IMG/VR virus record: IMGVR_UViG_3300042945_002143
Source of the DNA: an uncultured virus (IMG/VR IMGVR_UViG_3300042945_002143)
Taxonomy: Duplodnaviria; Heunggongvirae; Uroviricota; Caudoviricetes
Length of the DNA stretch: 64,000 nt
Strand: one strand, 5' to 3'
Made by a program: the position numbers and the translations under genes. Shown here piece by piece: positions 1 through 64,000 of this stretch; position 1 is the first letter of the stretch, and each line of letters opens with the position of its first letter. The notes under the pieces are model-generated. The model saw only the letters and a program-made list of their open reading frames with translations. It did no database searches and was not told where the DNA came from.

Positions 1-3000
1 GTTCAACAGGTTCGTCAGGTAGTAGTGGTATAACTGGGTCTTCAGGTACGAGTGGTAGTTCTGGCACATCAGGTTCATCTGGTAGTTCAGGTTCTTCAGG
101 TTCATCTGGTAGTTCAGGTTCTTCAGGTAGTACTGGTTCATCAGGAACTAGCGGAACATCAGGAACATCAGGTACAAGTGGTAGTTCAGGTTCTACAGGA
201 ACATCGGGTTCTACAGGAACATCGGGTTCATCAGGTAGTAGTGGCTCAAGTGGAAGTTCAGGATTGACAGGTTCATCAGGAACATCGGGTTCATCAGGGA
301 CATCGGGTTCATCAGGTAGTTCTGGTTCAAGTGGTAGTAGCGGAAGTACAGGGTCTTCGGGCACAAGTGGTAGTTCTGGTACATCAGGTTCATCAGGAAG
401 TTCAGGTTCATCAGGTTCTAGCGGTAGTGTTGGAACTTCGGGAACAAGTGGTTCAAGTGGAAGTTCAGGTTCTTCAGGAAGTGTAGGAACATCAGGTACA
501 AGTGGAAGTTCAGGTTCGTCTGGCTCAAGTGGAAATACAGGTTCAAGTGGAACGAGTGGTTCATCAGGTACATCTGGCTCAAGTGGTAGTTCAGGTTCGT
601 CTGGCTCAAGTGGTTCAAGTGGAAGTTCAGGTTCATCTGGAAGTGTAGGAACATCAGGTACAAGTGGTAGTTCAGGTTCTTCAGGTAGTTCAGGTGTTAA
701 TGGTTCTTCAGGGACTAGTGGTAGTTCGGGAACATCTGGTTCTTCAGGAAGTTCGGGTTCATCAGGTTCTAGTGGTAGTTCAGGAACATCTGGCTCAAGC
801 GGGTCTTCTGGTTCAAGTGGAAGTACTGGTTCTTCAGGAAGTGCAGGTACATCGGGTAGTGTAGGAACTAGCGGTAGTTCTGGTTCATCTGGTTCTTCAG
901 GTAGTACTGGCTCAAGTGGTACTTCAGGTTCTTCGGGAAGTTCTGGTACTAGTGGTTCATCAGGTAGTGTAGGTACTAGTGGTTCATCAGGTAGTTCTGG
1001 TTCAAGTGGTAGTAGCGGAAGTACAGGGTCTTCTGGTACAAGTGGGAGCTCAGGAACATCTGGTACAAGCGGTAGTTCTGGGTCATCTGGTTCAGTTGGT
1101 ACAAGCGGTTCATCAGGTAGTGTTGGAACATCTGGTTCATCAGGTTCTGTTGGTACTTCAGGAACATCGGGTTCATCAGGTAGTACTGGTTCAAGTGGAA
1201 GTTCAGGAAGTAGTGGTAGTGTAGGAACAAGTGGTTCTTCAGGGACATCTGGCTCAACAGGTACTTCAGGAACATCAGGTTCAAGTGGGTCTTCAGGTAG
1301 TTCGGGTTCATCAGGAAGTTCAGGTACAAGCGGAACATCAGGTTCAGTAGGAACAAGTGGTTCATCGGGAAGTTCAGGGTCAACAGGAACTTCAGGTTCA
1401 AGTGGGTCTTCAGGTAGTTCAGGAAGTAGCGGAACATCTGGTTCTAGTGGAAGTGTTGGAACTTCTGGTACATCAGGAACAAGTGGTTCATCGGGAAGTT
1501 CTGGTTCTGCCGGTACAAGTGGAAGTGTAGGAACAAGTGGTACTTCAGGTTCATCTGGCTCAAGTGGAAGTTCAGGTTCAACAGGTAGTTCAGGTACTAG
1601 CGGTTCATCTGGAAGTTCTGGTTCTGCAGGTACAAGTGGAAGTTCTGGTTCTTCAGGTAGTACGGGTTCAAGAGGAACTAGCGGAACATCAGGAAGTTCT
1701 GGTTCTGTTGGAACTAGTGGAACGTCTGGTTCAGTAGGAACTAGCGGAACATCTGGAACAAGTGGTTCATCAGGTTCTAGCGGTAGCGCTGGAAGCTCAG
1801 GAACGTCAGGTTCTAGCGGTAGCACAGGTTCAAGTGGTTCTACTGGCACGTCAGGTTCTTCAGGAACAAGTGGTTCTGTAGGTACAAGCGGAACATCTGG
1901 TTCCTCAGGAAGTGTAGGTACTTCAGGTACTAGTGGAAGCTCAGGAAGTGTAGGAACATCTGGTTCAAGTGGTACTACTGGTACCTCAGGAACATCAGGT
2001 AGTTCAGGTTCTAGCGGAAGTTCAGGTTCAAGTGGAACTAGTGGTAGTTCAGGAAGTTCTGGTTCATCGGGTAGTAGCGGTAGTTCTGGTAGTGTAGGAA
2101 CATCTGGTTCTTCAGGAAGTTCTGGTTCAAGTGGTTCATCCGGAAGTTCAGGTTCTACAGGTTCAAGAGGAACATCGGGTACTTCAGGAACTAGCGGTTC
2201 AAGTGGAAGTACAGGAACTAGTGGTACATCAGGTTCAACGGGGACTTCAGGAACAAGTGGTTCAACTGGAACATCAGGTACAAGTGGAAGTACAGGGTCT
2301 TCAGGAAGCTCTGGTACGTCGGGTAGTGTAGGTACTAGCGGTAGTTCAGGCTCTAGCGGAAGTACAGGAACTAGTGGAACCTCTGGTTCAACAGGGACTA
2401 GCGGTTCATCAGGTAGTTCAGGTTCAAGTGGAAGTTCAGGTAGTAGTGGTAGCGTTGGAACTTCTGGTACATCAGGTTCAAGTGGTTCTTCAGGAAGTGC
2501 AGGTTCTAGTGGAAGTACTGGAACCTCAGGAACATCAGGTAGTTCTGGTTCTTCAGGTAGTTCAGGTTCAAGTGGTAGTGTTGGAACATCAGGTTCATCG
2601 GGTAGTGTAGGTACTAGCGGTTCTTCTGGTTCAAGTGGAAGTTCAGGTTCTAGCGGAAGTACAGGGTCAAGCGGAACTAGTGGTAATTCAGGTTCGTCTG
2701 GTTCAAGTGGAAGTTCAGGTTCATCTGGAAGTGTAGGAACAAGTGGAACCTCAGGTTCAGTAGGTACAAGTGGTACATCAGGAAGTTCAGGCTCAAGTGG
2801 TAGTACGGGTTCATCTGGTACTAGCGGCTCTTCGGGAAGTACTGGGTCATCTGGAAGTTCAGGTTCAACAGGAACTAGCGGTTCTTCAGGAACATCAGGT
2901 AGTAGCGGTTCTAGTGGTAGTGCTGGAACAAGTGGTAGTTCTGGTTCTGTTGGTACATCTGGGTCAAGCGGAAGTAGTGGTTCATCGGGAAGTGTAGGCA

Positions 3001-5520
3001 CATCCGGTTCTTCAGGCTCTAGCGGTAGTGCTGGAAGTTCAGGAAGTGTTGGTACATCAGGGACTAGTGGTAGTTCAGGTTCTTCTGGTTCAAGTGGTAG
3101 TGTTGGTACATCAGGTACTAGCGGTTCATCAGGTACTAGCGGTTCATCAGGGTCAAGCGGAACTAGCGGTAGTTCAGGTTCTAGCGGTTCTTCAGGAAGT
3201 TCTGGGTCATCTGGCTCTTCAGGTAGTACAGGTTCAAGAGGAACTAGCGGTACTTCAGGAACTAGTGGTAGTGTAGGTACATCCGGTTCTTCAGGTAGTT
3301 CGGGAACATCAGGAAGTAGTGGAAGTTCAGGTTCTGCAGGTACAAGTGGAAGTGTAGGAACATCTGGAACTTCTGGTTCAAGTGGGTCATCAGGTTCAAG
3401 TGGTAGTGTTGGAACTAGCGGTTCATCAGGAACAAGTGGTTCGTCAGGTTCTAGCGGTAGTGCTGGAAGCTCAGGAAGTACTGGTTCATCAGGTTCTGCG
3501 GGAAGTGCTGGTACATCAGGGGTTAATGGTTCTTCAGGAACATCAGGTTCTGCTGGCTCAAGTGGAAGTTCAGGTTCTTCAGGTAGTTCGGGTTCAGTAG
3601 GTACAAGCGGAACTTCAGGTTCATCAGGTAGTGCTGGCTCGTCAGGGTCTAGCGGTTCTGTTGGTACTTCAGGTAGTAGTGGAACATCTGGAAGCTCTGG
3701 CTCAAGTGGTAGTGCGGGTTCATCAGGGAGTAGTGGAACTTCAGGTTCATCAGGAAGTTCAGGTTCAAGTGGTAGTACGGGGTCTTCAGGAAGTTCTGGT
3801 TCAACAGGTTCTAGAGGAACTAGCGGAACATCAGGTTCATCTGGAAGTGTTGGTACTTCAGGAACGTCAGGTTCAGTAGGTTCGTCTGGTTCTTCAGGAA
3901 CTTCAGGTTCAGTAGGTACTAGTGGAACATCTGGAAGCTCTGGCTCAAGTGGTAGTGCGGGGTCATCAGGGAGTACTGGTACAAGTGGAAGTTCGGGTTC
4001 AACTGGTACTTCAGGTTCAAGTGGAAGTAGTGGCTCATCAGGTTCTTCAGGGAGTACTGGTACAAGTGGAACATCAGGTTCTAGTGGAAGTAGTGGTAGT
4101 TCAGGGTCATCTGGTTCTGCAGGTACATCAGGAAGTAGTGGAAGTTCAGGGTCTAGCGGTAGTTCTGGTTCATCAGGTACATCGGGAACTAGCGGAAGTT
4201 CAGGAACTTCAGGTAGTAGTGGGTCATCAGGTTCAACGGGTAGTTCAGGAAGTAGTGGAACAAGTGGTTCATCTGGTACTTCAGGTTCATCTGGCTCAAG
4301 TGGTAGTACGGGTTCTTCAGGAAGCTCAGGCTCAAGCGGAAGTTCTGGTTCAACAGGTTCTAGAGGAACAAGTGGAACTTCTGGTTCGTCAGGAACTAGC
4401 GGAACGTCAGGAACATCAGGCTCAAGCGGAAGTGTTGGAACATCTGGTTCGTCAGGAAGTACAGGAACATCAGGTAGTGCTGGTTCTTCTGGCTCAAGTG
4501 GTAGTTCAGGTTCAAGTGGAAGTACTGGAACATCAGGTTCATCAGGTTCTAGCGGTAGTACTGGAAGCTCAGGAACGTCAGGTTCTGTAGGTACAAGCGG
4601 GACATCAGGAACTTCGGGAAGTACTGGTTCTAGTGGTAGTTCAGGAAGTTCTGGTTCATCGGGTAGTACAGGTACTTCAGGAAGCTCAGGTTCAAGTGGA
4701 ACTAGTGGTTCTTCAGGGTCTAGCGGTTCATCGGGTTCTAGTGGAAGTTCAGGGTCATCTGGTAGTACAGGTTCAAGAGGAACTAGCGGTACTTCAGGAA
4801 CTAGTGGTAGCTCAGGAACATCTGGTTCTTCGGGTACATCAGGGTCAGGTGGTTCTTCAGGAAGTAGTGGTAGTTCTGGAACTTCAGGTTCTTCAGGAAC
4901 AAGCGGAAGCTCAGGAACATCAGGTTCAAGTGGAAGCACGGGTAGTTCAGGCTCGTCAGGTAATACTGGAAGTTCTGGTACATCGGGTTCTTCGGGTACA
5001 AGTGGTTCTTCTGGGTCATCAGGCTCAAGTGGGAATACTGGTTCTTCGGGAACTTCTGGTTCATCAGGAACTAGCGGTTCTTCAGGAAGTTCAGGTTCAA
5101 GTGGTAATACAGGTTCTTCGGGTACTAGCGGTTCATCAGGTTCTTCTGGCTCATCAGGTTCAAGTGGAAGCTCAGGTTCTTCAGGTATTACAGGAAGTAG
5201 TGGAACTAGCGGTTCTTCAGGAAGTGCTGGTTCATCAGGTAGCTCAGGTTCAGGTTCATCAGGAACAAGCGGATTAGATGGTATTAGTGGAACATCTGGT
5301 TCATCAGGTACATCTGGCTCAAGTGGTAGCTCTGGTTCAACAGGTTCGTCAGGTAGTAGTGGTATAACTGGGTCTTCAGGTACGAGTGGTAGTTCGGGAA
5401 CATCAGGTTCATCGGGAACAAGTGGTTCTAGTGGAAGTTCGGGTTCTTCAGGTAGTTCGGGGTCTAGCGGAAGTACGGGTTCAAGAGGAACAAGTGGTTC
5501 ATCAGGCACATCAGGTAGTC
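1..5520 (+). repeat. 9-nt periodic coding repeat (GGN-TCN/AGY/ACN) encoding (Gly-X-Ser/Thr)n
   Basis: Gly at nearly every third codon, with synonymous codons shuffled. Contains longer exact duplications, e.g. 1-61 = 5335-5395. Confidence 0.95.
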
Positions 5521-6020
5521 AAGGTAATAAAGGTGGTCTTCAATACCAATACGGTGGTGGGACAGGAGGTGCACCTGCTTCAGGTCAATTTACTTATCAA
5601 GGAGCGGGTGTAGCGGTGTATGATTTGAAATTTGACGTAGTAACTGCTGACTCAGCAGATTTAAGTGATTATTTTTTAAACTTAGTTGGAACACAAGGGA
5701 TTGTATATTTAATTTTTAATTTAAATGGTTCAAATAAAATTGATATTTACTACTTCAACAATGTAAGTGTAAGTGGTAGTGATTATTTGTTTACAGGTGC
5801 ATTATATACAAATGGTGGTGATACAACACTTACAGTAAATGACGTATGTGCAGTTACTATTATTGTTAACGGTACATCTGGAACATCAGGTTCATCAGGT
5901 ACTTCAGGTTCATCGGGTATTACTGGTTCATCAGGTACCTCAGGAGCTGCAGGAGCTGCGGGTGGAACATTCACATTAGGACTTGTTTATACAACAGCAA
6001 ACAATTTTAACTTTATATAA
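3..6020 (+). CDS. Giant Gly-Ser/Thr triplet-repeat virion fibre-like protein (5'-truncated; frame open from window start)
   Basis: Frame 3 has no stop from nt 3 to TAA at 6018-6020, so the ORF-track start at 264 is internal. About 1800 residues of G-S-S/G-T-S/G-S-T/G-S-V triplets, then a ~120-aa globular domain (QGNKGGLQYQY...CAVTIIVNG) and a C-terminal FTLGLVYTTANNFNFI. Confidence 0.85.
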   Translation, partial: STGSSGSSGITGSSGTSGSSGTSGSSGSSGSSGSSGSSGSSGSTGSSGTSGTSGTSGTSGSSGSTGTSGSTGTSGSSGSSGSSGSSGLTGSSGTSGSSGTSGSSGSSGSSGSSGSTGSSGTSGSSGTSGSSGSSGSSGSSGSVGTSGTSGSSGSSGSSGSVGTSGTSGSSGSSGSSGNTGSSGTSGSSGTSGSSGSSGSSGSSGSSGSSGSSGSVGTSGTSGSSGSSGSSGVNGSSGTSGSSGTSGSSGSSGSSGSSGSSGTSGSSGSSGSSGSTGSSGSAGTSGSVGTSGSSGSSGSSGSTGSSGTSGSSGSSGTSGSSGSVGTSGSSGSSGSSGSSGSTGSSGTSGSSGTSGTSGSSGSSGSVGTSGSSGSVGTSGSSGSVGTSGTSGSSGSTGSSGSSGSSGSVGTSGSSGTSGSTGTSGTSGSSGSSGSSGSSGSSGTSGTSGSVGTSGSSGSSGSTGTSGSSGSSGSSGSSGTSGSSGSVGTSGTSGTSGSSGSSGSAGTSGSVGTSGTSGSSGSSGSSGSTGSSGTSGSSGSSGSAGTSGSSGSSGSTGSRGTSGTSGSSGSVGTSGTSGSVGTSGTSGTSGSSGSSGSAGSSGTSGSSGSTGSSGSTGTSGSSGTSGSVGTSGTSGSSGSVGTSGTSGSSGSVGTSGSSGTTGTSGTSGSSGSSGSSGSSGTSGSSGSSGSSGSSGSSGSVGTSGSSGSSGSSGSSGSSGSTGSRGTSGTSGTSGSSGSTGTSGTSGSTGTSGTSGSTGTSGTSGSTGSSGSSGTSGSVGTSGSSGSSGSTGTSGTSGSTGTSGSSGSSGSSGSSGSSGSVGTSGTSGSSGSSGSAGSSGSTGTSGTSGSSGSSGSSGSSGSVGTSGSSGSVGTSGSSGSSGSSGSSGSTGSSGTSGNSGSSGSSGSSGSSGSVGTSGTSGSVGTSGTSGSSGSSGSTGSSGTSGSSGSTGSSGSSGSTGTSGSSGTSGSSGSSGSAGTSGSSGSVGTSGSSGSSGSSGSVGTSGSSGSSGSAGSSGSVGTSGTSGSSGSSGSSGSVGTSGTSGSSGTSGSSGSSGTSGSSGSSGSSGSSGSSGSSGSTGSRGTSGTSGTSGSVGTSGSSGSSGTSGSSGSSGSAGTSGSVGTSGTSGSSGSSGSSGSVGTSGSSGTSGSSGSSGSAGSSGSTGSSGSAGSAGTSGVNGSSGTSGSAGSSGSSGSSGSSGSVGTSGTSGSSGSAGSSGSSGSVGTSGSSGTSGSSGSSGSAGSSGSSGTSGSSGSSGSSGSTGSSGSSGSTGSRGTSGTSGSSGSVGTSGTSGSVGSSGSSGTSGSVGTSGTSGSSGSSGSAGSSGSTGTSGSSGSTGTSGSSGSSGSSGSSGSTGTSGTSGSSGSSGSSGSSGSAGTSGSSGSSGSSGSSGSSGTSGTSGSSGTSGSSGSSGSTGSSGSSGTSGSSGTSGSSGSSGSTGSSGSSGSSGSSGSTGSRGTSGTSGSSGTSGTSGTSGSSGSVGTSGSSGSTGTSGSAGSSGSSGSSGSSGSTGTSGSSGSSGSTGSSGTSGSVGTSGTSGTSGSTGSSGSSGSSGSSGSTGTSGSSGSSGTSGSSGSSGSSGSSGSSGSSGSTGSRGTSGTSGTSGSSGTSGSSGTSGSGGSSGSSGSSGTSGSSGTSGSSGTSGSSGSTGSSGSSGNTGSSGTSGSSGTSGSSGSSGSSGNTGSSGTSGSSGTSGSSGSSGSSGNTGSSGTSGSSGSSGSSGSSGSSGSSGITGSSGTSGSSGSAGSSGSSGSGSSGTSGLDGISGTSGSSGTSGSSGSSGSTGSSGSSGITGSSGTSGSSGTSGSSGTSGSSGSSGSSGSSGSSGSTGSRGTSGSSGTSGSQGNKGGLQYQYGGGTGGAPASGQFTYQGAGVAVYDLKFDVVTADSADLSDYFLNLVGTQGIVYLIFNLNGSNKIDIYYFNNVSVSGSDYLFTGALYTNGGDTTLTVNDVCAVTIIVNGTSGTSGSSGTSGSSGITGSSGTSGAAGAAGGTFTLGLVYTTANNFNFI

Positions 6021-47215: not shown

Positions 47216-47506
47216 ATGAAAAATGTGGATGCGGAAATTTACTTAAATCAATTGATTACGTTCTTTGAAAAGAACCCCAACGATTTGATTGACTTAATTG
47301 GGGAACTTAAGAAAACCAAATTCTATAAAAGAATTAAAGAAAAAGTTTACGAGAATGTTGAAAATGGTTTGGAACTCATCCTTACCCAGCAACAACTTAT
47401 TGATATTGTTGTGGGTATGTACGATGAGACAAACAAAACTATTAAGCCAATGGAGATTAAGACTCCTGTTATCAAAACAAATTATGGAATTATTTTTCTA
47501 AATTGA
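47216..47506 (+). CDS. Hypothetical protein
   Basis: TATCTTTG upstream (47189-47196). Confidence 0.7.
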   Translation: MKNVDAEIYLNQLITFFEKNPNDLIDLIGELKKTKFYKRIKEKVYENVENGLELILTQQQLIDIVVGMYDETNKTIKPMEIKTPVIKTNYGIIFLN

Positions 47507-51696: not shown

Positions 51697-51736
51697 TTTA
51701 CGCTCTTTGGTGATATTTATAGATATAGTATTTAAA

Positions 51737-52399
51737 ATGTCTGATAATTGTAAAATATATAAAATTACTAATATGTCCAATGGACTAAATTATGTTGGGT
51801 GTACTATTGGTAAAATGGAAGAAAGGTTCAAAGAACATGTTTATCGTTGTTTTAGTAGTAACAATAATTCAAAATTATATAATTCAATGAGAAAATATGG
51901 TAAAGAAAATTTTATCATAACTTTGATTGAAGAATGTGAAATGGAAACTATGTATGATAGAGAAAAATATTACATAAAAGAATATGATACATTTAAAAAT
52001 GGACTTAATTCTACTATAGGTGGTGATGGTTGTTTAGGGTATACTCATTCTGAAGAAATTAGAAAAAAAATATCAGAAAATACTAAAAATGGAAATTCAC
52101 ATAAAGGTAAAACATATGATGTGTTATATGGTGAAAATGCTGAATTTGAAAAACTGAAAAGAAAAACATCGGTAAAAAAAAGTTGGGATAAATTAACTGA
52201 ACAGGATAAACATAAAAGAATGAAAAATATGTTAGAAAAAGTTAGAAATAATTCCAAAGTGGGTATTGAAACCATAAAACAAATTAAAGAAGAAATAAAC
52301 AAAGGTTTGACAAATAAAGAACTAAAAGAAAAATATCCTGAAATAAGATATAATTTATTTAGTGAATTACGAAATAATCGTAGGTGGAAAAATATTTAA
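51737..52399 (+). CDS. Free-standing GIY-YIG homing endonuclease
   Basis: KIYKITN...NYVG, RFKEH, REKYYI, GLNSTIGGDG, NUMOD3-like HSEEIRKKIS. Confidence 0.85.
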   Translation: MSDNCKIYKITNMSNGLNYVGCTIGKMEERFKEHVYRCFSSNNNSKLYNSMRKYGKENFIITLIEECEMETMYDREKYYIKEYDTFKNGLNSTIGGDGCLGYTHSEEIRKKISENTKNGNSHKGKTYDVLYGENAEFEKLKRKTSVKKSWDKLTEQDKHKRMKNMLEKVRNNSKVGIETIKQIKEEINKGLTNKELKEKYPEIRYNLFSELRNNRRWKNI

Positions 52400-59762: not shown

Positions 59763-61166
59763 ATGAAAAAGATAATTTCCGAAGGTGGTATCAGAAACAT
59801 AAGAGAACTTTCTGATAGATACAAAAAAGCAAAGATATACTTCCACCAAGATTTAGATGGTGTTGCAACTGCATTAGCGATGAAAAAGTATTTGGAAGAC
59901 AACGGAATCAAAGTTGTTGATGTTGAAGTAATCCAATACGGAGATAAGGAATTCGCGGTTAAGAAAGCAGATGCTGAAGGTGAAATCATGCCAGTTCTTG
60001 TTGACTTTGCTCACGGAAAACCAATGTTCGTGGTTCATACTGACCACCACGATAGACAAGCCGGAGCTGACGAAACTAAGTCAACTCAGTTCAGAGGGGC
60101 TCGTTCAAATGTTGAAACTCTTTCACAGATTGTCCCGGCTTCTGAAATTTTCACACCAGAAGATGTTGCGACAATATCTATGGTTGATAGTGCTGATTAT
60201 GCTTCAAAAAACATTACACCTGAAATGGTGATGAATTATGTGTATGGGACATCAAAAGAAAAGAGTGCTAAAGAAAATAGAATGTTATTAGGTTTGGTTA
60301 CCAACAAATTATTGTTGGCTTTCAAAAGTAAACCAGGATTTTTAGAGACATTAGTATTAGATTGTAAACCTTCACTTCTTTCAATCTTCAATAAGATTAA
60401 GGAATTAATGAAGACAAACAGATATGCTGATATATCTTCATTAGAGAAAAACAAAGAAGATTACGTTCAGACAATGAAAGGACATAAGAATGTTCAGGTT
60501 AAAGATAATATCATCGTTCAGTATGGTGGTGGTAGTATGATGAGACCTGGTTCGTATGACAGATACACCCCATTTAGAAACAACCCTGAAGCTGACTTTT
60601 TAGTTATTGCTTGGCCACTTGGTTTATTACAGGCATCATGTAACCCTTTTAAAAAAGAAAGAGAACTTAAAGGTGTTAACTTGGGAGAAATTGCTCAAGA
60701 AGTATTGGGACATTGGGAATCACAATTAAAAGAAAAACAAGTCCCATTATCAACAATCAAGTGGGTTTCTGAAACTGCTGCGAAAGAAGAATCAGTTGGA
60801 TTTACCTTTAAGGATTTTGCTGCAATATACGGAGACAAATACTTGGATGAGAAAGATGGTGTTAAAACACTTATGGATATTAAATCTTTGATGGAAAAAA
60901 AATCATCTGAATTGACCGAAGAAGAATGGAGTGTGTTAGATGGTGTTACTGTTCCAGTATGGGAAGTTATCCAAGCTAATTCAGGTGGACACAAGTGTAT
61001 TACAAATGTATCTGGTTTAAATTATATTGGAAGAAGTAAGAGACCACCACAAGGTAAGTACAAGTACGATTCTGAAAAAGAAGATTCACCTTATATTAAG
61101 TTCTTAAAGATGTTACAGAATAGATTTGTGAATGTTTTACAACAGAAGATTGAGGAAAGTAAGTAA
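59763..61166 (+). CDS. DHH-family phosphoesterase
   Basis: FHQDLDG, VDFAH, TDHH, C-terminal SGGHK (DHHA1-like). Confidence 0.75.
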   Translation: MKKIISEGGIRNIRELSDRYKKAKIYFHQDLDGVATALAMKKYLEDNGIKVVDVEVIQYGDKEFAVKKADAEGEIMPVLVDFAHGKPMFVVHTDHHDRQAGADETKSTQFRGARSNVETLSQIVPASEIFTPEDVATISMVDSADYASKNITPEMVMNYVYGTSKEKSAKENRMLLGLVTNKLLLAFKSKPGFLETLVLDCKPSLLSIFNKIKELMKTNRYADISSLEKNKEDYVQTMKGHKNVQVKDNIIVQYGGGSMMRPGSYDRYTPFRNNPEADFLVIAWPLGLLQASCNPFKKERELKGVNLGEIAQEVLGHWESQLKEKQVPLSTIKWVSETAAKEESVGFTFKDFAAIYGDKYLDEKDGVKTLMDIKSLMEKKSSELTEEEWSVLDGVTVPVWEVIQANSGGHKCITNVSGLNYIGRSKRPPQGKYKYDSEKEDSPYIKFLKMLQNRFVNVLQQKIEESK

Positions 61167-61167
61167 T

Positions 61168-61515
61168 TTATTTAAAGAACTCACAAACTTGTCCTTCTCT
61201 GATACCTAAATCTTCACAGGTACCACCTTCAAGTTCTAATACATACATTCCTTTACCTACAAACCTTTCACAAGGTTGAACCTTACATGGTTCACAGTAG
61301 TGATGTATTTTATTGATTTTAAAGTTCTTATCAATAAAGATAATGTCTAAAGGGATGATACAATTCATCATCCAAAAACTATGTGAACCATCACCCATGA
61401 TGAACAACATACCGTCAAAATCGTCAAAAGTCTTGTTCATCATACCTTGACTGGTCTCAGAACTTTCAATTAACACTTTGACATTGAAACTATTTTTATT
61501 TATTTTTAACAACAT
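61168..61515 (-). CDS. DUF192 family protein
   Basis: GMM...GMLF...FWMMNCIIPLDIIFID...YVLELEGG. Confidence 0.85.
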   Translation of the reverse strand: MLLKINKNSFNVKVLIESSETSQGMMNKTFDDFDGMLFIMGDGSHSFWMMNCIIPLDIIFIDKNFKINKIHHYCEPCKVQPCERFVGKGMYVLELEGGTCEDLGIREGQVCEFFK

Positions 61516-61535
61516 ACTTATTAATAAATATTTCT

Positions 61536-61946
61536 ATGAAACAAAGTGCAGGAATTATTGTGAAAGTAAATGATAAATGTTTGGTTTGTAAGAGAACTGC
61601 TGAGATTAATGAACCATCAAAGTGGGCAATACCTATGGGTGGAATAGAAGAAGGTGAAGACCCAAAGGATGCTGCGTATAGAGAGTTCTATGAGGAGATG
61701 GGTGTTCCAGTTGAAGAAGATATTAAACCTTTGGGTAAAATTAATCGTTATAACAAATTAGGTGGAATAAAAACTATTCTACATGTGTTCCTTTTAAAGA
61801 CTGATACCAAAATCATTCCTGATTTAGAGAATGCTATGGACGGTTTTGAACACACAGAATGTGCGTACATGACTTTAGAAGAAATTAAAAAACTTAATAT
61901 GTCATCAGGTATTAAGGAAGTTTTAACTGATGTGTTAAATTTTTGA
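61536..61946 (+). CDS. NUDIX hydrolase
   Basis: Nudix box GGIEEGEDPKDAAYREFYEEMG. Confidence 0.9.
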   Translation: MKQSAGIIVKVNDKCLVCKRTAEINEPSKWAIPMGGIEEGEDPKDAAYREFYEEMGVPVEEDIKPLGKINRYNKLGGIKTILHVFLLKTDTKIIPDLENAMDGFEHTECAYMTLEEIKKLNMSSGIKEVLTDVLNF

Positions 61947-61963
61947 TTTTTTTGATATATTTA

Positions 61964-61995
61964 TTTGACACTACGGAATATTCGCTGTAAGTTTG
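61964..61995 (+). promoter_or_regulatory. Promoter P1 upstream of the large ncRNA
   Basis: TTTG-N20-TAAGTTTG. Confidence 0.7.
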
Positions 61996-62065
61996 TAAAA
62001 GATTTAACACTTATAGGAAATGAAAGATACTCGGTAGTTAAATCAAAAAAAAAGTTCACAAACTA

Positions 62066-62097
62066 CTTGACAGAAAGAAAAAAAAGTCGTAAGTTTG
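62066..62097 (+). promoter_or_regulatory. Promoter P2 upstream of the large ncRNA
   Basis: CTTG-N20-TAAGTTTG; shares GTAAGTTTGTAAAA with P1, 102 nt apart. Confidence 0.7.
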
Positions 62098-62106
62098 TAA
62101 AACAAA

Positions 62107-62134
62107 TCGGAAATGTCCGAGACGTTCTTTGAAA
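62107..62134 (+). promoter_or_regulatory. boxB-like hairpin plus boxA-like antitermination motif
   Basis: TCGGA-AATG-TCCGA followed by GTTCTTTGAAA. Confidence 0.5.
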
Positions 62135-62140
62135 CAAAAA

Positions 62141-63014
62141 GATTATCCATTCTCTGAGTAAGTCGTATTCCCGCCTTCGTGTGACGAATATGAGCACTGA
62201 AAAGAGATAAACGATAATGGGCCGTGTATGGTCCTTAAATAAACTACGAAAGTAGGATAAAGTGGTCTCCCCCGTGTTGAGGAGACTGCGGTTTGAAACC
62301 CCGTAAGGGGAATTGAACTCAAGTACACAAGTGGGGTATCACCAAACCTTTAGTACCGAGGATAACTTCGTAGGGAGAATGGTAGGGTGACCTGGCAAAG
62401 TAGATTGTCAGGTTGAGTTCGGAAGAACGATAAGAATAACCCATAGGAACTCTGTAAGAAATGTGACCATCCAGTTACACAATTGCGGGTCCCAATATGA
62501 TAGAGGACTTAAAACCGAAAGGTAAGATGGAGAACGAGTGGTGTCGCTACTATCCTTAGAGATAACCTGCCAAGGGTCTTTATGAAGTAATCTTGAAATA
62601 TGGAGGTGGGGACACTTCACGGAGTAGTTTAGTATTCTGTCGCTCAAAAGGAGACAGAGCTTATGTTGGACCACTACTCTGACACATCTACTACACAAAC
62701 CTAACATTATTACAAAATAACAAAGGAAAAGTGTCCATCAGGTTTGAGTGAAAGGTGACTACATAGTAATGAGCCGTTCATTGCATACAGAGACCCCAAG
62801 TCAATGTGTATTGTTAAGAAAAACCTTTAGTCCCGCAAGGACGAACTGGGGTGGCAACCTCGGAAAGAGTTAAGTATTGATAGAGTAATTCAAACCTCAA
62901 GGAGTGGTACACCTAAAATACCGTCACTAAGAAATACTACCCAAAAGGTGGTGGATACGAAGGGAAACAATAATCCTTCAAAAGTTTCTTAACATAAGCT
63001 GTAATCTCAGGCTT
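62141..63014 (+). ncRNA. Large ornate structured non-coding RNA (GOLLD-like candidate)
   Basis: About 870 nt without a credible ORF, GC-richer than the flanks. Many GNRA-capped hairpins and long-range helices with G-U pairs on the + strand; own promoters and terminator. Confidence 0.75.
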
Positions 63015-63024
63015 TTCTAATTTG

Positions 63025-63048
63025 ACCTGTCAATTGACTGGTTTTTTT
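63025..63048 (+). terminator. Probable intrinsic terminator of the ncRNA
   Basis: ACCTGTC-AATT-GACTGGT (one mismatch) followed by a T run. Confidence 0.55.
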
Positions 63049-63069
63049 ATTTATAGACAATTATAAACT

Positions 63070-63294
63070 ATGACAATATTAGAAAATCTTAAAGAGGTAT
63101 TACCATCATGGGCGGTGGTAAAACAAAAGGAACTACCATATAAGATGGAGTATGAGATTAGACTTCAACCTACTTTGGATGAGGATGAACATTTTGCTTT
63201 AACACCAAAACTTAAGGAAGCTTGTCAGGGTAAGTTTATGGAAAGATACACTGTAGATATTGGTGAACACTTTTATATTTATACAAAAAAGTAA
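63070..63294 (+). CDS. Hypothetical protein
   Basis: TATTTATA upstream (63048-63055). Confidence 0.65.
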   Translation: MTILENLKEVLPSWAVVKQKELPYKMEYEIRLQPTLDEDEHFALTPKLKEACQGKFMERYTVDIGEHFYIYTKK

Positions 63295-63296
63295 TC

Positions 63297-63482
63297 ATGA
63301 TACCTAAAGAGATTAAAGAATTAGTTAACAAATACCCAAACAATTATGAATTGGGTGAGGAAGTTAGAAAATATTATCACAAAAATAAACAGAAAGAAAA
63401 TTTTAATTCTGGTGTTCTGTGGATAGGAATTTTATTCTTTTTTATATTTGCTTCACTCTTGACTTGGATTATAACCGTTTAA
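63297..63482 (+). CDS. Small protein with C-terminal TM helix
   Basis: YPNNYELGEEVR then a hydrophobic helix; adjacent to the endolysin. Confidence 0.6.
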   Translation: MIPKEIKELVNKYPNNYELGEEVRKYYHKNKQKENFNSGVLWIGILFFFIFASLLTWIITV

Positions 63483-63522
63483 TTTCCTGACTTTAAACAT
63501 ATTTATAATAAAATTATAAATT

Positions 63523-64000
63523 ATGTTACTAAAAGTTGGGTCTAAAGGAGAAGACGTTAAAAAACTCCAAGCAAAATTAGGTACCACCGCTGATGGAAGT
63601 TTCGGTCCTGGTACAGAAAAACTGGTTAAAGAATGGCAATCGGATAACGGACTAACAGCTGACGGTATCGTTGGTGATGGTACTTGGTCTAAGATGTTCC
63701 CAACAACTCAACCAGTTCAAGTGGTTAAAGAAGATGTTGTTATCCCGACAAGTTCTGAGTTTAAATTACAAAATCTAAAAGGACATGTTCCTGACGCAGT
63801 AATTGCTCAAATCCCTGAAACTGCTAAAAAATTCAATATTACTAACCCATTAAGATTAGCTCATTTCTTGGCTCAGTGTGGACACGAGTCAGGTGGGTTT
63901 AAAGCTGTTTCTGAGAACCTTAACTATTCTGCTGACGGACTTAAGAAAATCTTTGGTAAGTATTTCCCTGGTAACTTAAATGAGTCATACGCTCGTCAAC
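63523..64000 (+). CDS. Endolysin: PG-binding domain + GH19 (chitinase/lysozyme-like) domain, 3'-truncated by the window
   Basis: Hand translation MLLKVGSKGEDVKKLQAKLG..ADGSFGPGTE...WQ..NGLTADGIVG...RLAHFLAQCGHESGGF..VSENLNYSADGL; no stop before the window end. Confidence 0.88.
   Translation, partial: MLLKVGSKGEDVKKLQAKLGTTADGSFGPGTEKLVKEWQSDNGLTADGIVGDGTWSKMFPTTQPVQVVKEDVVIPTSSEFKLQNLKGHVPDAVIAQIPETAKKFNITNPLRLAHFLAQCGHESGGFKAVSENLNYSADGLKKIFGKYFPGNLNESYARQ

What the first reader, a model, noticed from the sequence alone, without database searches (positions are those of the whole stretch)
62141..63014. ~0.9-kb ornate non-coding RNA gene in a Bacteroidota-type jumbo phage (GOLLD-like or a new class)
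Seen: this is the only large ORF-free stretch in an otherwise wall-to-wall coding window, and it is GC-richer than its flanks. GNRA hairpins: CUAC-GAAA-GUAG (62244-55), CCCC-GUAA-GGGG (62299-310), GUUC-GGAA-GAAC (62417-28), ACC-GAAA-GGU (62514-23), GAGGUG-GGGA-CACUUC (62603-18). Other stems: GUGGUCUCC/GGAGACUGC (62262-70/62281-89) and CUGGGGU/ACCUCGG (62846-63). Long-range helices: GUGUC/GACAC (62541-45/62681-85), GGAGUAGU/ACUACUCU (62621-28/62673-80), GUGUCCAUC/GGUGGAUAC (62731-39/62950-58), AGGUUUGAGU/AUUCAAACCU (62740-49/62888-97), and a crossing, pseudoknot-like UGUUAAGAAA/UUUCUUAACA (62812-21/62985-94). An A-rich linker at ~62690-62730 splits it into two domains. G-U pairs favour the + strand. 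Known: GOLLD and ROOL are large phage-associated ncRNAs of unknown function, and GOLLD (~800 nt) is common in freshwater metagenomes. Inference: this is a GOLLD-type RNA or an undescribed relative. No tRNA is visible next to it.
Basis: partly seen in the sequence, partly recalled or inferred. Interest (0 to 1): 0.85.

Follow-up and report, generated by a model that had tools for sequence, protein, structure and literature searches.

The report
Known GOLLD RNA with rRNA-like leader
The gene-free stretch encodes a clear member of GOLLD, a known giant phage RNA that builds RNA-only cages, so it is not a new class; its gene is preceded by start signals like those of ribosomal RNA operons.

Summary
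Rfam's GOLLD model (RF02032) matches window 62620-63013 (+) end to end at 322.6 bits (cut-off 150). The 5' half (62216-62619) reads co-linear, by eye, with the env-38 GOLLD solved by cryo-EM. It also aligns with 36 distinct homologs from viral contigs and two 634/642-kb phages. On that alignment 225 pairs are 95.0% paired and 143 show double changes.

One crossing 'pseudoknot' is rejected. Two long-range helices lack support.

The + strand folds better than shuffles (z -3.20; the - strand +0.48). No reading frame is conserved. Contigs from 4 of 4 metatranscriptome runs lie on the RNA.

One addition goes beyond the finding. The gene has a Bacteroidota-type -33/-7 promoter, a 5' hairpin and a boxA-like GTTCTTTGAAA. 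That motif is kept in 45 of 48 homologous loci and occurs in 13 of 18 Bacteroidota rRNA leaders.

This scan has recorded GOLLD on other DNA many times.

The parts
61962..62000 (+). First copy of a promoter-like repeat (TTGACA, 17 nt, TAAGTTTG)
   Evidence: Direct repeat D1: two copies 102 nt apart, 72% alike. TAAGTTTG lies at 61988-61995. Its function is inferred.
62064..62102 (+). Second promoter-like copy, read as a Bacteroidota -33/-7 promoter (TTG at about 62067, TAAGTTTG at 62090-62097); start of transcription inferred near 62101-62106
   Evidence: TAnnTTTG lies 23-41 nt before the boxA-like motif in 31 of 45 distinct homolog leaders, in 8 variants of 'nn'; the control gives 1 of 45. The -7 consensus TANNTTTGY is taken from passages of PMC12632263.
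62107..62120 (+). 5' leader hairpin (UCGG-AAAUGU-CCGA)
   Evidence: In 36 of 45 homolog leaders the 35 nt just before the boxA-like motif fold at -5 kcal/mol or better. The mean is -5.4 against -2.1 for shuffles.
62124..62134 (+). boxA-like motif GTTCTTTGAAA
   Evidence: One search gives its place. It occurs with at most 1 mismatch within 250 nt upstream of the GOLLD core in 45 of 48 distinct homologous loci; the control is 0 of 48. The same motif with at most 1 mismatch lies before the 16S gene in 13 of 18 genomes of the phylum of G001 (Bacteroidota), control 0 of 18. The B. subtilis rrn boxA consensus is AUGAUCUUUGAAA and follows a 5' hairpin (PMC13753749).
62135..62215 (+). Variable leader with a hairpin closed by UCUC/GAGA
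   Evidence: The closing stem shows double changes in homologs (A2 columns 156-159 with 238-241). This part is not in the env-38 construct.
62216..62619 (+). GOLLD 5' domain (the cap of the cage in env-38)
   Evidence: It aligns with 36 homologs, and its helices covary. By eye it is co-linear with residues 3-420 of env-38.
62620..63013 (+). GOLLD 3' domain, including the A-rich linker at about 62683-62730
   Evidence: Rfam RF02032: 322.6 bits, E 1.3e-91, model positions 1-416 of 416.
63024..63050 (+). Intrinsic-terminator-like hairpin followed by a U run
   Evidence: MFE -6.9 kcal/mol, z -3.23, 0 of 200 shuffles as good. The hairpin and T run are kept in close relatives, with changes in the stem (alignment). 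The consensus scan did not call it.

Best explanation
Window 62216-63013 (+) is a full-length GOLLD RNA gene of a lake phage. It is a close relative of the env-38 GOLLD, whose cryo-EM structure is a 14-chain RNA-only cage.

Shown here: family membership; a conserved, covarying fold over both domains; the coding strand; the lack of a conserved reading frame; and the presence of the sequence in RNA libraries.

Inferred: host RNA polymerase starts at a Bacteroidota-type -33/-7 promoter near 62100. The nascent leader forms a small hairpin and exposes a boxA-like site (62124-62134). As in rRNA operons, that site would load NusB/S10 and make the polymerase resistant to Rho while it copies about 0.9 kb of untranslated, highly folded RNA. 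Transcription stops at the hairpin plus U run at 63024-63050. The leader may then be trimmed.

Also inferred: the copies assemble through the loop contacts seen in env-38 into a hollow cage. What the cage does in infection is unknown. My guess is that it holds or sequesters a host or phage macromolecule late in infection.
For: Family membership: Rfam GOLLD scores 322.6 bits against a cut-off of 150, over the full model, and is the only family over threshold in the 64 kb. The two nearest phage records also carry GOLLD, at 287.3 and 275.3 bits.

Fold: on 37 sequences, 225 pairs are 95.0% paired. 143 pairs show double changes. 0 of 500 shuffles reach any of the measures. Slid controls give 39-43% paired.

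Cage contact: the pairs 62725-62797 and 62726-62796, which map by eye to the B7 contact of env-38, covary (GC 31 / UA 6 and GC 19 / CG 18) and are 100% paired.

Cage loops, read by eye against env-38: GAAA 62248-51, GGAA 62421-24, UCAAAAG 62644-50, CGCAA 62834-38, GGCA 62853-56 and CAAAA 62942-46 are all present.

Strand and coding: z -3.20 for + against +0.48 for -. No homolog keeps the antisense ORF open (0 of 36), and only 55 of 313 indel runs are multiples of three.

RNA: contigs of 4 of 4 RNA runs, from 4 studies, lie on 62242-63012. Several pieces are identical to the window.

Leader: as listed under parts.
Against: No tRNA lies nearby, although GOLLD is said to be often near tRNAs. But only 13 of 42 homolog loci had a tRNA in the fetched flanks.

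The comparison with env-38 was made by eye only.

The ends of the RNA are not measured, because contigs cannot show them.

The boxA-like 11-mer is not enriched in the window (4 matches against 5.0 expected). One exact copy, at 47260, lies in a small ORF. The case therefore rests on conservation in homologs. Three of the 48 homologous loci lack the motif (L002, L161, L201).

No binding or antitermination was tested. The sigma-70 scan called no promoter at the leader.
Confidence: 0.9

Rival explanations
1. It is a new class of large ornate RNA that only resembles GOLLD.
For: Rfam's model covers only the 3' half, and the 5' half of GOLLD is described as variable.
Against: The full 416-position model matches at 322.6 bits. 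By eye the 5' half is co-linear with env-38 from its first hairpin to the domain border. It is shared with 36 homologs whose 3' halves match the same profile; L001 and L002 also pass Rfam's GOLLD cut-off.
Confidence: 0.01
2. The stretch is a decayed or small protein-coding region, such as the 99-aa minus-strand ORF at 62408-62707.
For: A 99-aa mechanical ORF exists.
Against: The equivalent stretch is stop-free in 0 of 36 homologs. Only 55 of 313 indel runs are multiples of 3. Changes are compensatory in helices.
Confidence: 0.01
3. The hairpin plus GTTCTTTGAAA is not a Nus site. It could be a leaky terminator or insulator, or a processing or regulator site that ends upstream transcription (tRNA genes in some relatives) or marks where the leader is cut off.
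For: The scan called the hairpin 62107-62120 plus GACGTTCTTT terminator-like. In L001, L065 and L128 the element lies between a tRNA gene or tRNA-like 3' end and GOLLD.
Against: The conserved part runs beyond the T run (GAAA). It equals the motif found 84-217 nt before 16S genes in Bacteroidota. It matches 11 of 13 positions of the B. subtilis boxA consensus, a boxA-like RNA shown to bind NusB. The hairpin's place at the very start of the predicted transcript is as described for B. subtilis rrn operons.
Confidence: 0.3

Closest known systems
GOLLD RNA env-38 (833 nt; 14-chain cage, PDB 9MEE; Kretsch et al. 2025, PMC12286853)
   Same: The order of helices is the same from the first hairpin to the last. 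The loops that bridge chains are the same, and the 3' end is closely alike (UCUCAGGCU here, UCUCAGCCU in env-38). This is by eye from Supplementary Table 4. Rfam match.
   Different: The core is 798 nt here against 831 nt of native sequence in the 833-nt construct. The region around the GAAA loop at 62517 is shorter. The kissing loops that correspond to B4 could form about 3 pairs instead of 5, by eye. env-38 was found downstream of a Met-tRNA in a marine sample. This copy has its own promoter-like leader, has no tRNA nearby and comes from lake water.
Streptococcus agalactiae GOLLD (700 nt; 12-chain cage, PDB 9L0R; reviewed in PMC12990946)
   Same: Same family and the same 3' domain P14-P27.
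   Different: The Sag RNA lacks P9, P11a-c and P21b. The window keeps the GGCA hairpin at 62846-62863, which I map by eye to P21b, so it is nearer to env-38.
ROOL RNA
   Same: A large phage-associated RNA that also forms a cage.
   Different: Its sequence and fold are unrelated. No ROOL match reached threshold in the window.
rRNA operon leaders (5' hairpin plus boxA, which loads NusB:S10)
   Same: A hairpin at the 5' end is followed directly by a boxA-like site. The 11-mer occurs in 13 of 18 Bacteroidota 16S leaders, 5 of them exact. The tandem promoter copies recall rRNA operons.
   Different: What follows here is a phage cage RNA, not rRNA. No boxC or processing stem was identified. Function was not tested.

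Membership tests
GOLLD RNA (Rfam RF02032) | Covariance-model score at or above the curated gathering score | tested here: met
   322.6 bits against 150; E 1.3e-91; model positions 1-416 of 416; not truncated.
GOLLD RNA (Rfam RF02032) | Conserved 3' domain helices kept by covariation | tested here: met
   In A3 columns 612-1053 nearly all helices are 88-100% paired and have double changes. Examples: helix 24 has 10 of 12 pairs with double changes, helix 30 has 5 of 7, and helix 44 has 5 of 6. Exceptions: the GGCA hairpin (helix 39) is 81.8% paired, and a few short predicted stems (helices 25-27, 32) show no double change.
GOLLD RNA (Rfam RF02032) | A 5' domain (P1-P13) upstream of the 3' domain, less conserved | tested here: met
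   62216-62619 aligns with 36 homologs and covaries. By eye it is co-linear with env-38 residues 3-420. The env-38 letters were not put into any tool.
GOLLD RNA (Rfam RF02032) | Kissing contact between loop L20 and linker J13/15 (bridge B7) | tested here: met
   Pairs 62725-62797 and 62726-62796 are 100% paired in 37 sequences, and both covary (helix 28). Mapping them to B7 is by eye.
GOLLD RNA (Rfam RF02032) | Assembly into a homo-oligomeric cage | not testable with these tools
   This needs mass photometry or cryo-EM of the transcript.
GOLLD RNA (Rfam RF02032) | Phage or prophage setting, often near tRNA genes (a typical feature, not a defining one) | tested here: inconclusive
   The phage setting is met: tail fibre, primase, SbcCD and endolysin families are present. 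tRNA proximity is not met. It was seen in only 13 of 42 homolog loci within the fetched flanks.
rrn-type boxA antitermination leader | boxA sequence like that of the host's rRNA leaders | tested here: met
   GTTCTTTGAAA occurs with at most 1 mismatch in 13 of 18 Bacteroidota 16S leaders, control 0 of 18. It matches 11 of 13 positions of the B. subtilis consensus.
rrn-type boxA antitermination leader | Binding of NusB:S10 and Rho-resistant elongation | not testable with these tools

The most novel reading that the evidence does not exclude
GOLLD genes of this lake-phage clade are built like miniature rRNA operons: tandem Bacteroidota promoters, a 5' hairpin and the host's own boxA. On this reading the phage borrows the host rRNA antitermination complex (NusB, S10 and partners) to transcribe, and perhaps help fold, its giant cage RNA. 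I found no paper linking GOLLD to boxA or antitermination in the searched library. No paper holds both 'GOLLD RNA' and 'boxA'. Four papers hold 'GOLLD' and 'antitermination'. In the two I checked, antitermination appears only in the reference list. The other two, a paper and its preprint, were not read.
Probability: 0.5. Interest if true: 0.45.

Novelty: already known. Interest (0 to 1): 0.25.

Why it matters
As an RNA it adds nothing new. GOLLD was named for lake metagenomes, its structure is solved, and this scan has met it on many other genomes.

It has two modest uses. First, it gives a clean, self-contained GOLLD transcription unit with promoter, leader and terminator and no tRNA neighbours. 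It belongs to a family of at least 37 distinct full-length sequences. That could serve work on how the cage RNA is made in Bacteroidota hosts.

Second, the conserved boxA-like leader gives a testable handle on GOLLD expression through Nus factors and Rho. The function of the RNA itself remains open.

Tried and rejected
A 3'-domain pattern of 21 specified bases found nothing in viral contigs.

The Rfam search of the window's own record found nothing, because that record ends at window 62831, inside the gene.

The bare TAnnTTTG motif is not enriched in the window: 110 matches against 100.4 +/- 8.1 expected.

The sigma-70 scan gave no promoter at the leader and no more sites than shuffles.

The exact 14-mer GTTCTTTGAAACAA in genome contigs lay upstream of a 16S gene in only 1 of 120 loci (L314). 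That is too diluted by chance matches to count.

Host by protein likeness failed. A 497-aa protein had no match in 'phages'. The sigma factor matched phages of many hosts.

- GUGUC/GACAC (62541-45/62681-85): no double change; three of its five pairs, counted on 37 sequences, are 72.3% paired.
- GUGUCCAUC/GGUGGAUAC (62731-39/62950-58): its inner pairs clash with the covarying Rfam hairpin, and it has one double change only.
- UGUUAAGAAA/UUUCUUAACA (62812-21/62985-94): 64.1% paired, and it competes with the covarying helix 62928-33/62985-90.

RNA-library contigs did not cover 61000-62009 or 63020-64000. Depth was 2 or less over 62010-62211, in one run only.

Paper search was badly aimed and gave nothing on GOLLD.

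I did not align env-38 by machine, because its letters come from a paper and not from the window or a locus.

Full report
OBSERVATION.
The stretch is richer in G+C than its flanks. GC is 0.40-0.44 in windows between 62050 and 62949, against 0.28-0.35 in the windows just before (61300-62199) and just after (62800-63399). With 61947-63069 free of ORFs of 100 aa or more, it is the longest such gap in the window. ARAGORN finds no tRNA or tmRNA in the 64 kb.

IDENTITY.
A scan of the whole window against Rfam 15 at gathering thresholds gives exactly one match. It is GOLLD (RF02032) at 62620-63013 on the + strand: 322.6 bits against a cut-off of 150, E 1.3e-91, model positions 1-416 of 416, not truncated. 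Rfam's model covers only the conserved 3' region.

For the 5' half I used homologs. blastn against 50,697 phage records found two, LR745206.1 (634,780 bp) and LR756502.1 (642,428 bp). Both carry GOLLD above threshold, at 287.3 and 275.3 bits, with tRNA genes beside it. Their 5' halves align with window 62215-62619.

Of these, 33 matched a profile of the whole RNA. A 3'-end pattern pulled 119 more. 42 of them matched the 3' profile and 25 also matched the 5' profile. After dropping repeats of the same contig and identical sequences, 36 full-length homologs remained.

FOLD.
The window and the 36 homologs make alignment A3. I computed an RNAalifold consensus on it. Its 225 pairs are 95.0% paired, and 143 pairs show changes on both sides. 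None of 500 shuffles reaches any measure. Sliding the partners by 1-3 columns drops pairing to 39-43%. The structure was derived from this same alignment, which favours it. The size of the gap and the number of double changes are nevertheless far beyond the controls. Both domains are covered.

Supported, with double changes and 100% pairing:
- CUAC-GAAA-GUAG
- GUGGUCUCC/GGAGACUGC (6 of 9 pairs with double changes)
- GUUC-GGAA-GAAC
- ACC-GAAA-GGU
- GAGGUG-GGGA-CACUUC
- AGGUUUGAGU/AUUCAAACCU (also in the Rfam structure)

Consistent:
- GGAGUAGU/ACUACUCU, which is the first Rfam helix and shows one-sided changes only
- CUGGGGU/ACCUCGG, an Rfam hairpin, 84.7% paired
- CCCC-GUAA-GGGG, a variable hairpin present in 10 of 17 sequences

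Not supported:
- GUGUC/GACAC has no double change, and the three of its five pairs counted on A3 are 72.3% paired.
- GUGUCCAUC/GGUGGAUAC has inner pairs that clash with a covarying hairpin.

Rejected:
- The crossing UGUUAAGAAA/UUUCUUAACA is 64.1% paired, and its 3' arm belongs to the covarying helix with 62928-33.

COMPARISON WITH THE SOLVED STRUCTURE.
I read passages of Kretsch et al. 2025 (PMC12286853) and its Supplementary Tables 1, 2 and 4. They describe env-38 GOLLD as 833 nt, with a 5' region of residues 1-420, a 3' region of 421-833 and a disordered linker at 497-538. It forms a 14-chain cage.

Reading the printed env-38 sequence by eye against the window, the two are co-linear from the first hairpin (window 62216) to the last bases (63013). 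The window's core is 798 nt.

By eye, the loops that bridge chains in env-38 are present here:
- GAAA at 62248-51 (B1)
- GAGG..AAC at about 62358-66 (B2)
- GGAA at 62421-24 (B3)
- loops 62470-75 and 62609-12, which could still kiss through GGA/UCC (B4; fewer pairs than in env-38)
- UCAAAAG at 62644-50 (B6)
- CGCAA at 62834-38 (B8)
- GGCA at 62853-56 (B9)
- CAAAA at 62942-46 (B10)

For B7 I could run a test. The two pairs 62725-62797 and 62726-62796 are paired in all 37 sequences, and both covary (GC 31 / UA 6; GC 19 / CG 18).

A review read in passages (PMC12990946) says the S. agalactiae GOLLD lacks P9, P11a-c and P21b and forms 12-mers. The window keeps the hairpin I map to P21b, so it is nearer to env-38. 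The number of chains cannot be told from sequence.

STRAND, CODING, RNA.
The + strand folds at -227.1 kcal/mol (z -3.20; 0 of 20 shuffles as good). The - strand folds at -191.7 kcal/mol (z +0.48; 12 of 20 shuffles as good).

The window's 99-aa antisense ORF is open in 0 of 36 homologs. Only 55 of 313 indel runs are multiples of three.

An index of public runs lists 20 holders, 6 of them RNA libraries. The 14 that hold half or more of the sampled words are DNA runs, 13 labelled lake water metagenome and one simply metagenome. In 4 of 4 RNA runs laid, from 4 studies, contigs lie on 62242-63012. Several pieces have no difference from the window, for example 62706-63000 and 62757-62860. Contigs cannot give ends or levels, and RNA libraries can hold DNA.

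GENE SIGNALS.
Upstream lie two copies of a 39-nt repeat, 102 nt apart. Each holds TTGACA, 17 nt, then TAAGTTTG. After the second copy come a hairpin (62107-62120), GTTCTTTGAAA (62124-62134), a variable hairpin, and then the GOLLD core.

I tested that here in four ways.

- Conservation of the motif. Among homologous loci with at least 120 nt upstream and non-identical upstream DNA, 45 of 48 carry the 11-mer with at most one mismatch, 15-114 nt before the core. On the reverse complement of the same stretches the count is 0 of 48. L002, L161 and L201 lack it.
- Hairpin. In 36 of 45 distinct leaders the 35 nt before the motif fold at -5 kcal/mol or better, with different stem sequences.
- Promoter motif. 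In 31 of 45, TAnnTTTG lies 23-41 nt upstream, mostly 26-27 nt, in 8 variants of 'nn'. 30 of these also have TTG 17-23 nt further upstream. The control gives 1 of 45. The Bacteroides -7 consensus is TANNTTTGY and is said to be relatively conserved in Bacteroidota (PMC12632263, passage).
- Host rRNA leaders. I took 40 further genomes drawn from the phylum of G001. G001 is the genome behind locus L279, whose record is titled Mucilaginibacter, a genus of Bacteroidota. 18 genomes had a 16S gene with at least 300 nt upstream. 13 of these 18 carry the 11-mer with at most one mismatch in the 350 nt before the 16S start, and 5 are exact matches. Most lie 84-217 nt before the gene; in G007 and G012 the near match lies at 311-312 nt. 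The reverse-complement control gives 0 of 18.

A 2026 paper (PMC13753749, passages) reports that B. subtilis rrn operons begin with a small hairpin, followed at once by a boxA-like consensus AUGAUCUUUGAAA, and that a boxA-like RNA of one such operon binds NusB. The window's ACGUUCUUUGAAA matches 11 of its 13 positions.

Within the window the 11-mer is not enriched (4 matches against 5.0 expected). The exact copy at 47260 lies in a small ORF. The argument therefore rests on conservation.

Downstream, a hairpin plus U run at 63024-63050 (z -3.23) is kept in close relatives. In the 634/642-kb phages a tRNA gene or tRNA-like sequence sits there instead.

CONTEXT.
The window is phage DNA. It carries a collagen-like tail fibre, primase, exonuclease, SbcCD, a sigma factor, methyltransferases and a GIY-YIG endonuclease. 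A NUDIX hydrolase gene lies just upstream of the RNA. Two small ORFs and an endolysin gene lie just downstream.

The held virus record is 101,628 bp, estimated 34% complete, and ends at window 62831, inside the GOLLD gene. 'Jumbo' is therefore plausible but not shown.

Al-Shayeb et al. 2020 (PMC7162821, passages) report complete genomes of 634 and 642 kb and predict Bacteroidetes hosts for their largest genomes (given there as those of more than 634 kb). The two records match those lengths, but their accession numbers are not in the main text. The link is an inference.

tRNA genes lay within the fetched flanks in 13 of 42 homolog loci. A GOLLD without tRNA neighbours is therefore common in this set.

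MECHANISM AND RIVALS.
Shown: a transcribed-strand, non-coding, covarying RNA of the GOLLD family.

Inferred by homology: assembly into a cage like that of env-38.

Inferred from conserved signals: transcription from a Bacteroidota promoter, with an rRNA-like hairpin and boxA leader that would recruit Nus factors and protect a long untranslated transcript from Rho. The rival reading treats the element as a leaky terminator, insulator or processing site. It keeps some weight, about 0.3, because the hairpin plus T-rich tail looks terminator-like. It also sits after a tRNA gene or tRNA-like end in L001, L065 and L128.

The biological role of the cage remains unknown. The papers read offer encapsulation of tRNAs, ribosomes or other molecules as hypotheses.

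NOVELTY.
The RNA is already known. This scan's notes hold 1,422 findings with the word GOLLD, in at least 1,169 genomes.

For the leader, no paper in the searched library holds both 'GOLLD RNA' and 'boxA'. Four papers hold 'GOLLD' and 'antitermination'. In two of them, PMC5737381 and PMC12990946, antitermination appears only in the reference list. The other two, PMC7567579 and its preprint, I did not read. Weinberg et al. 2009, the founding paper, is not in the searched library. I know it only from citations and recall.

LIMITS.
The env-38 comparison is by eye. RNA ends are unmeasured. Supplementary alignments of PMC12286853 (the zip file) were searched for two motifs only.

Noticed in passing
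window 62831: The held IMG/VR record ends here, inside the GOLLD gene (within the CGCAA hairpin). The window runs on for 1,169 bases that are not in that record. Window and record also differ at 3 bases (31565, 53110, 53119).
   Followed up: partly
window 63070-64000: Directly after the RNA's terminator lie two small ORFs (74 aa; and 61 aa with a hydrophobic tail, by eye) and an endolysin gene (phrog_181, E 2.8e-24). This looks like a lysis cassette. The 74-aa ORF start is kept downstream of GOLLD in at least 8 relatives (alignment).
   Followed up: partly
window 61962-62060: The DNA after the first promoter copy holds GAAAGATACTCGGTA, which also forms the leader hairpin of relative L202 (by eye). 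The window may carry the remnant of a second, different GOLLD leader ahead of the working one.
   Followed up: no
window 2-6020: A tail-fibre ORF of about 1,918-2,005 aa with collagen-like repeats (phrog_5073, phrog_1806) has a 1,836-aa open frame on the opposite strand. This is probably a by-product of the repeats.
   Followed up: no
window 47260-47270: A second exact GTTCTTTGAAA lies inside a small unlisted ORF that starts at ATG 47217. I read it as chance.
   Followed up: partly
L365, L369, L372 (G005): The record behind G005 is titled Glaciecola amylolytica, a gammaproteobacterium by NCBI taxonomy. Yet its three rRNA leaders carry tandem TTG...TACCTTTGCA motifs of the Bacteroidota kind, plus GTTCTTTGACA. 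The record's name and its DNA seem at odds.
   Followed up: no
L002, L161, L201: Three GOLLD loci of the huge-phage clade lack the boxA-like motif within 250 nt upstream, although their relatives L001, L065 and L146 keep it.
   Followed up: no
window 51707-52399: A GIY-YIG homing endonuclease gene (phrog_7168, phrog_314) lies among unknown genes.
   Followed up: no
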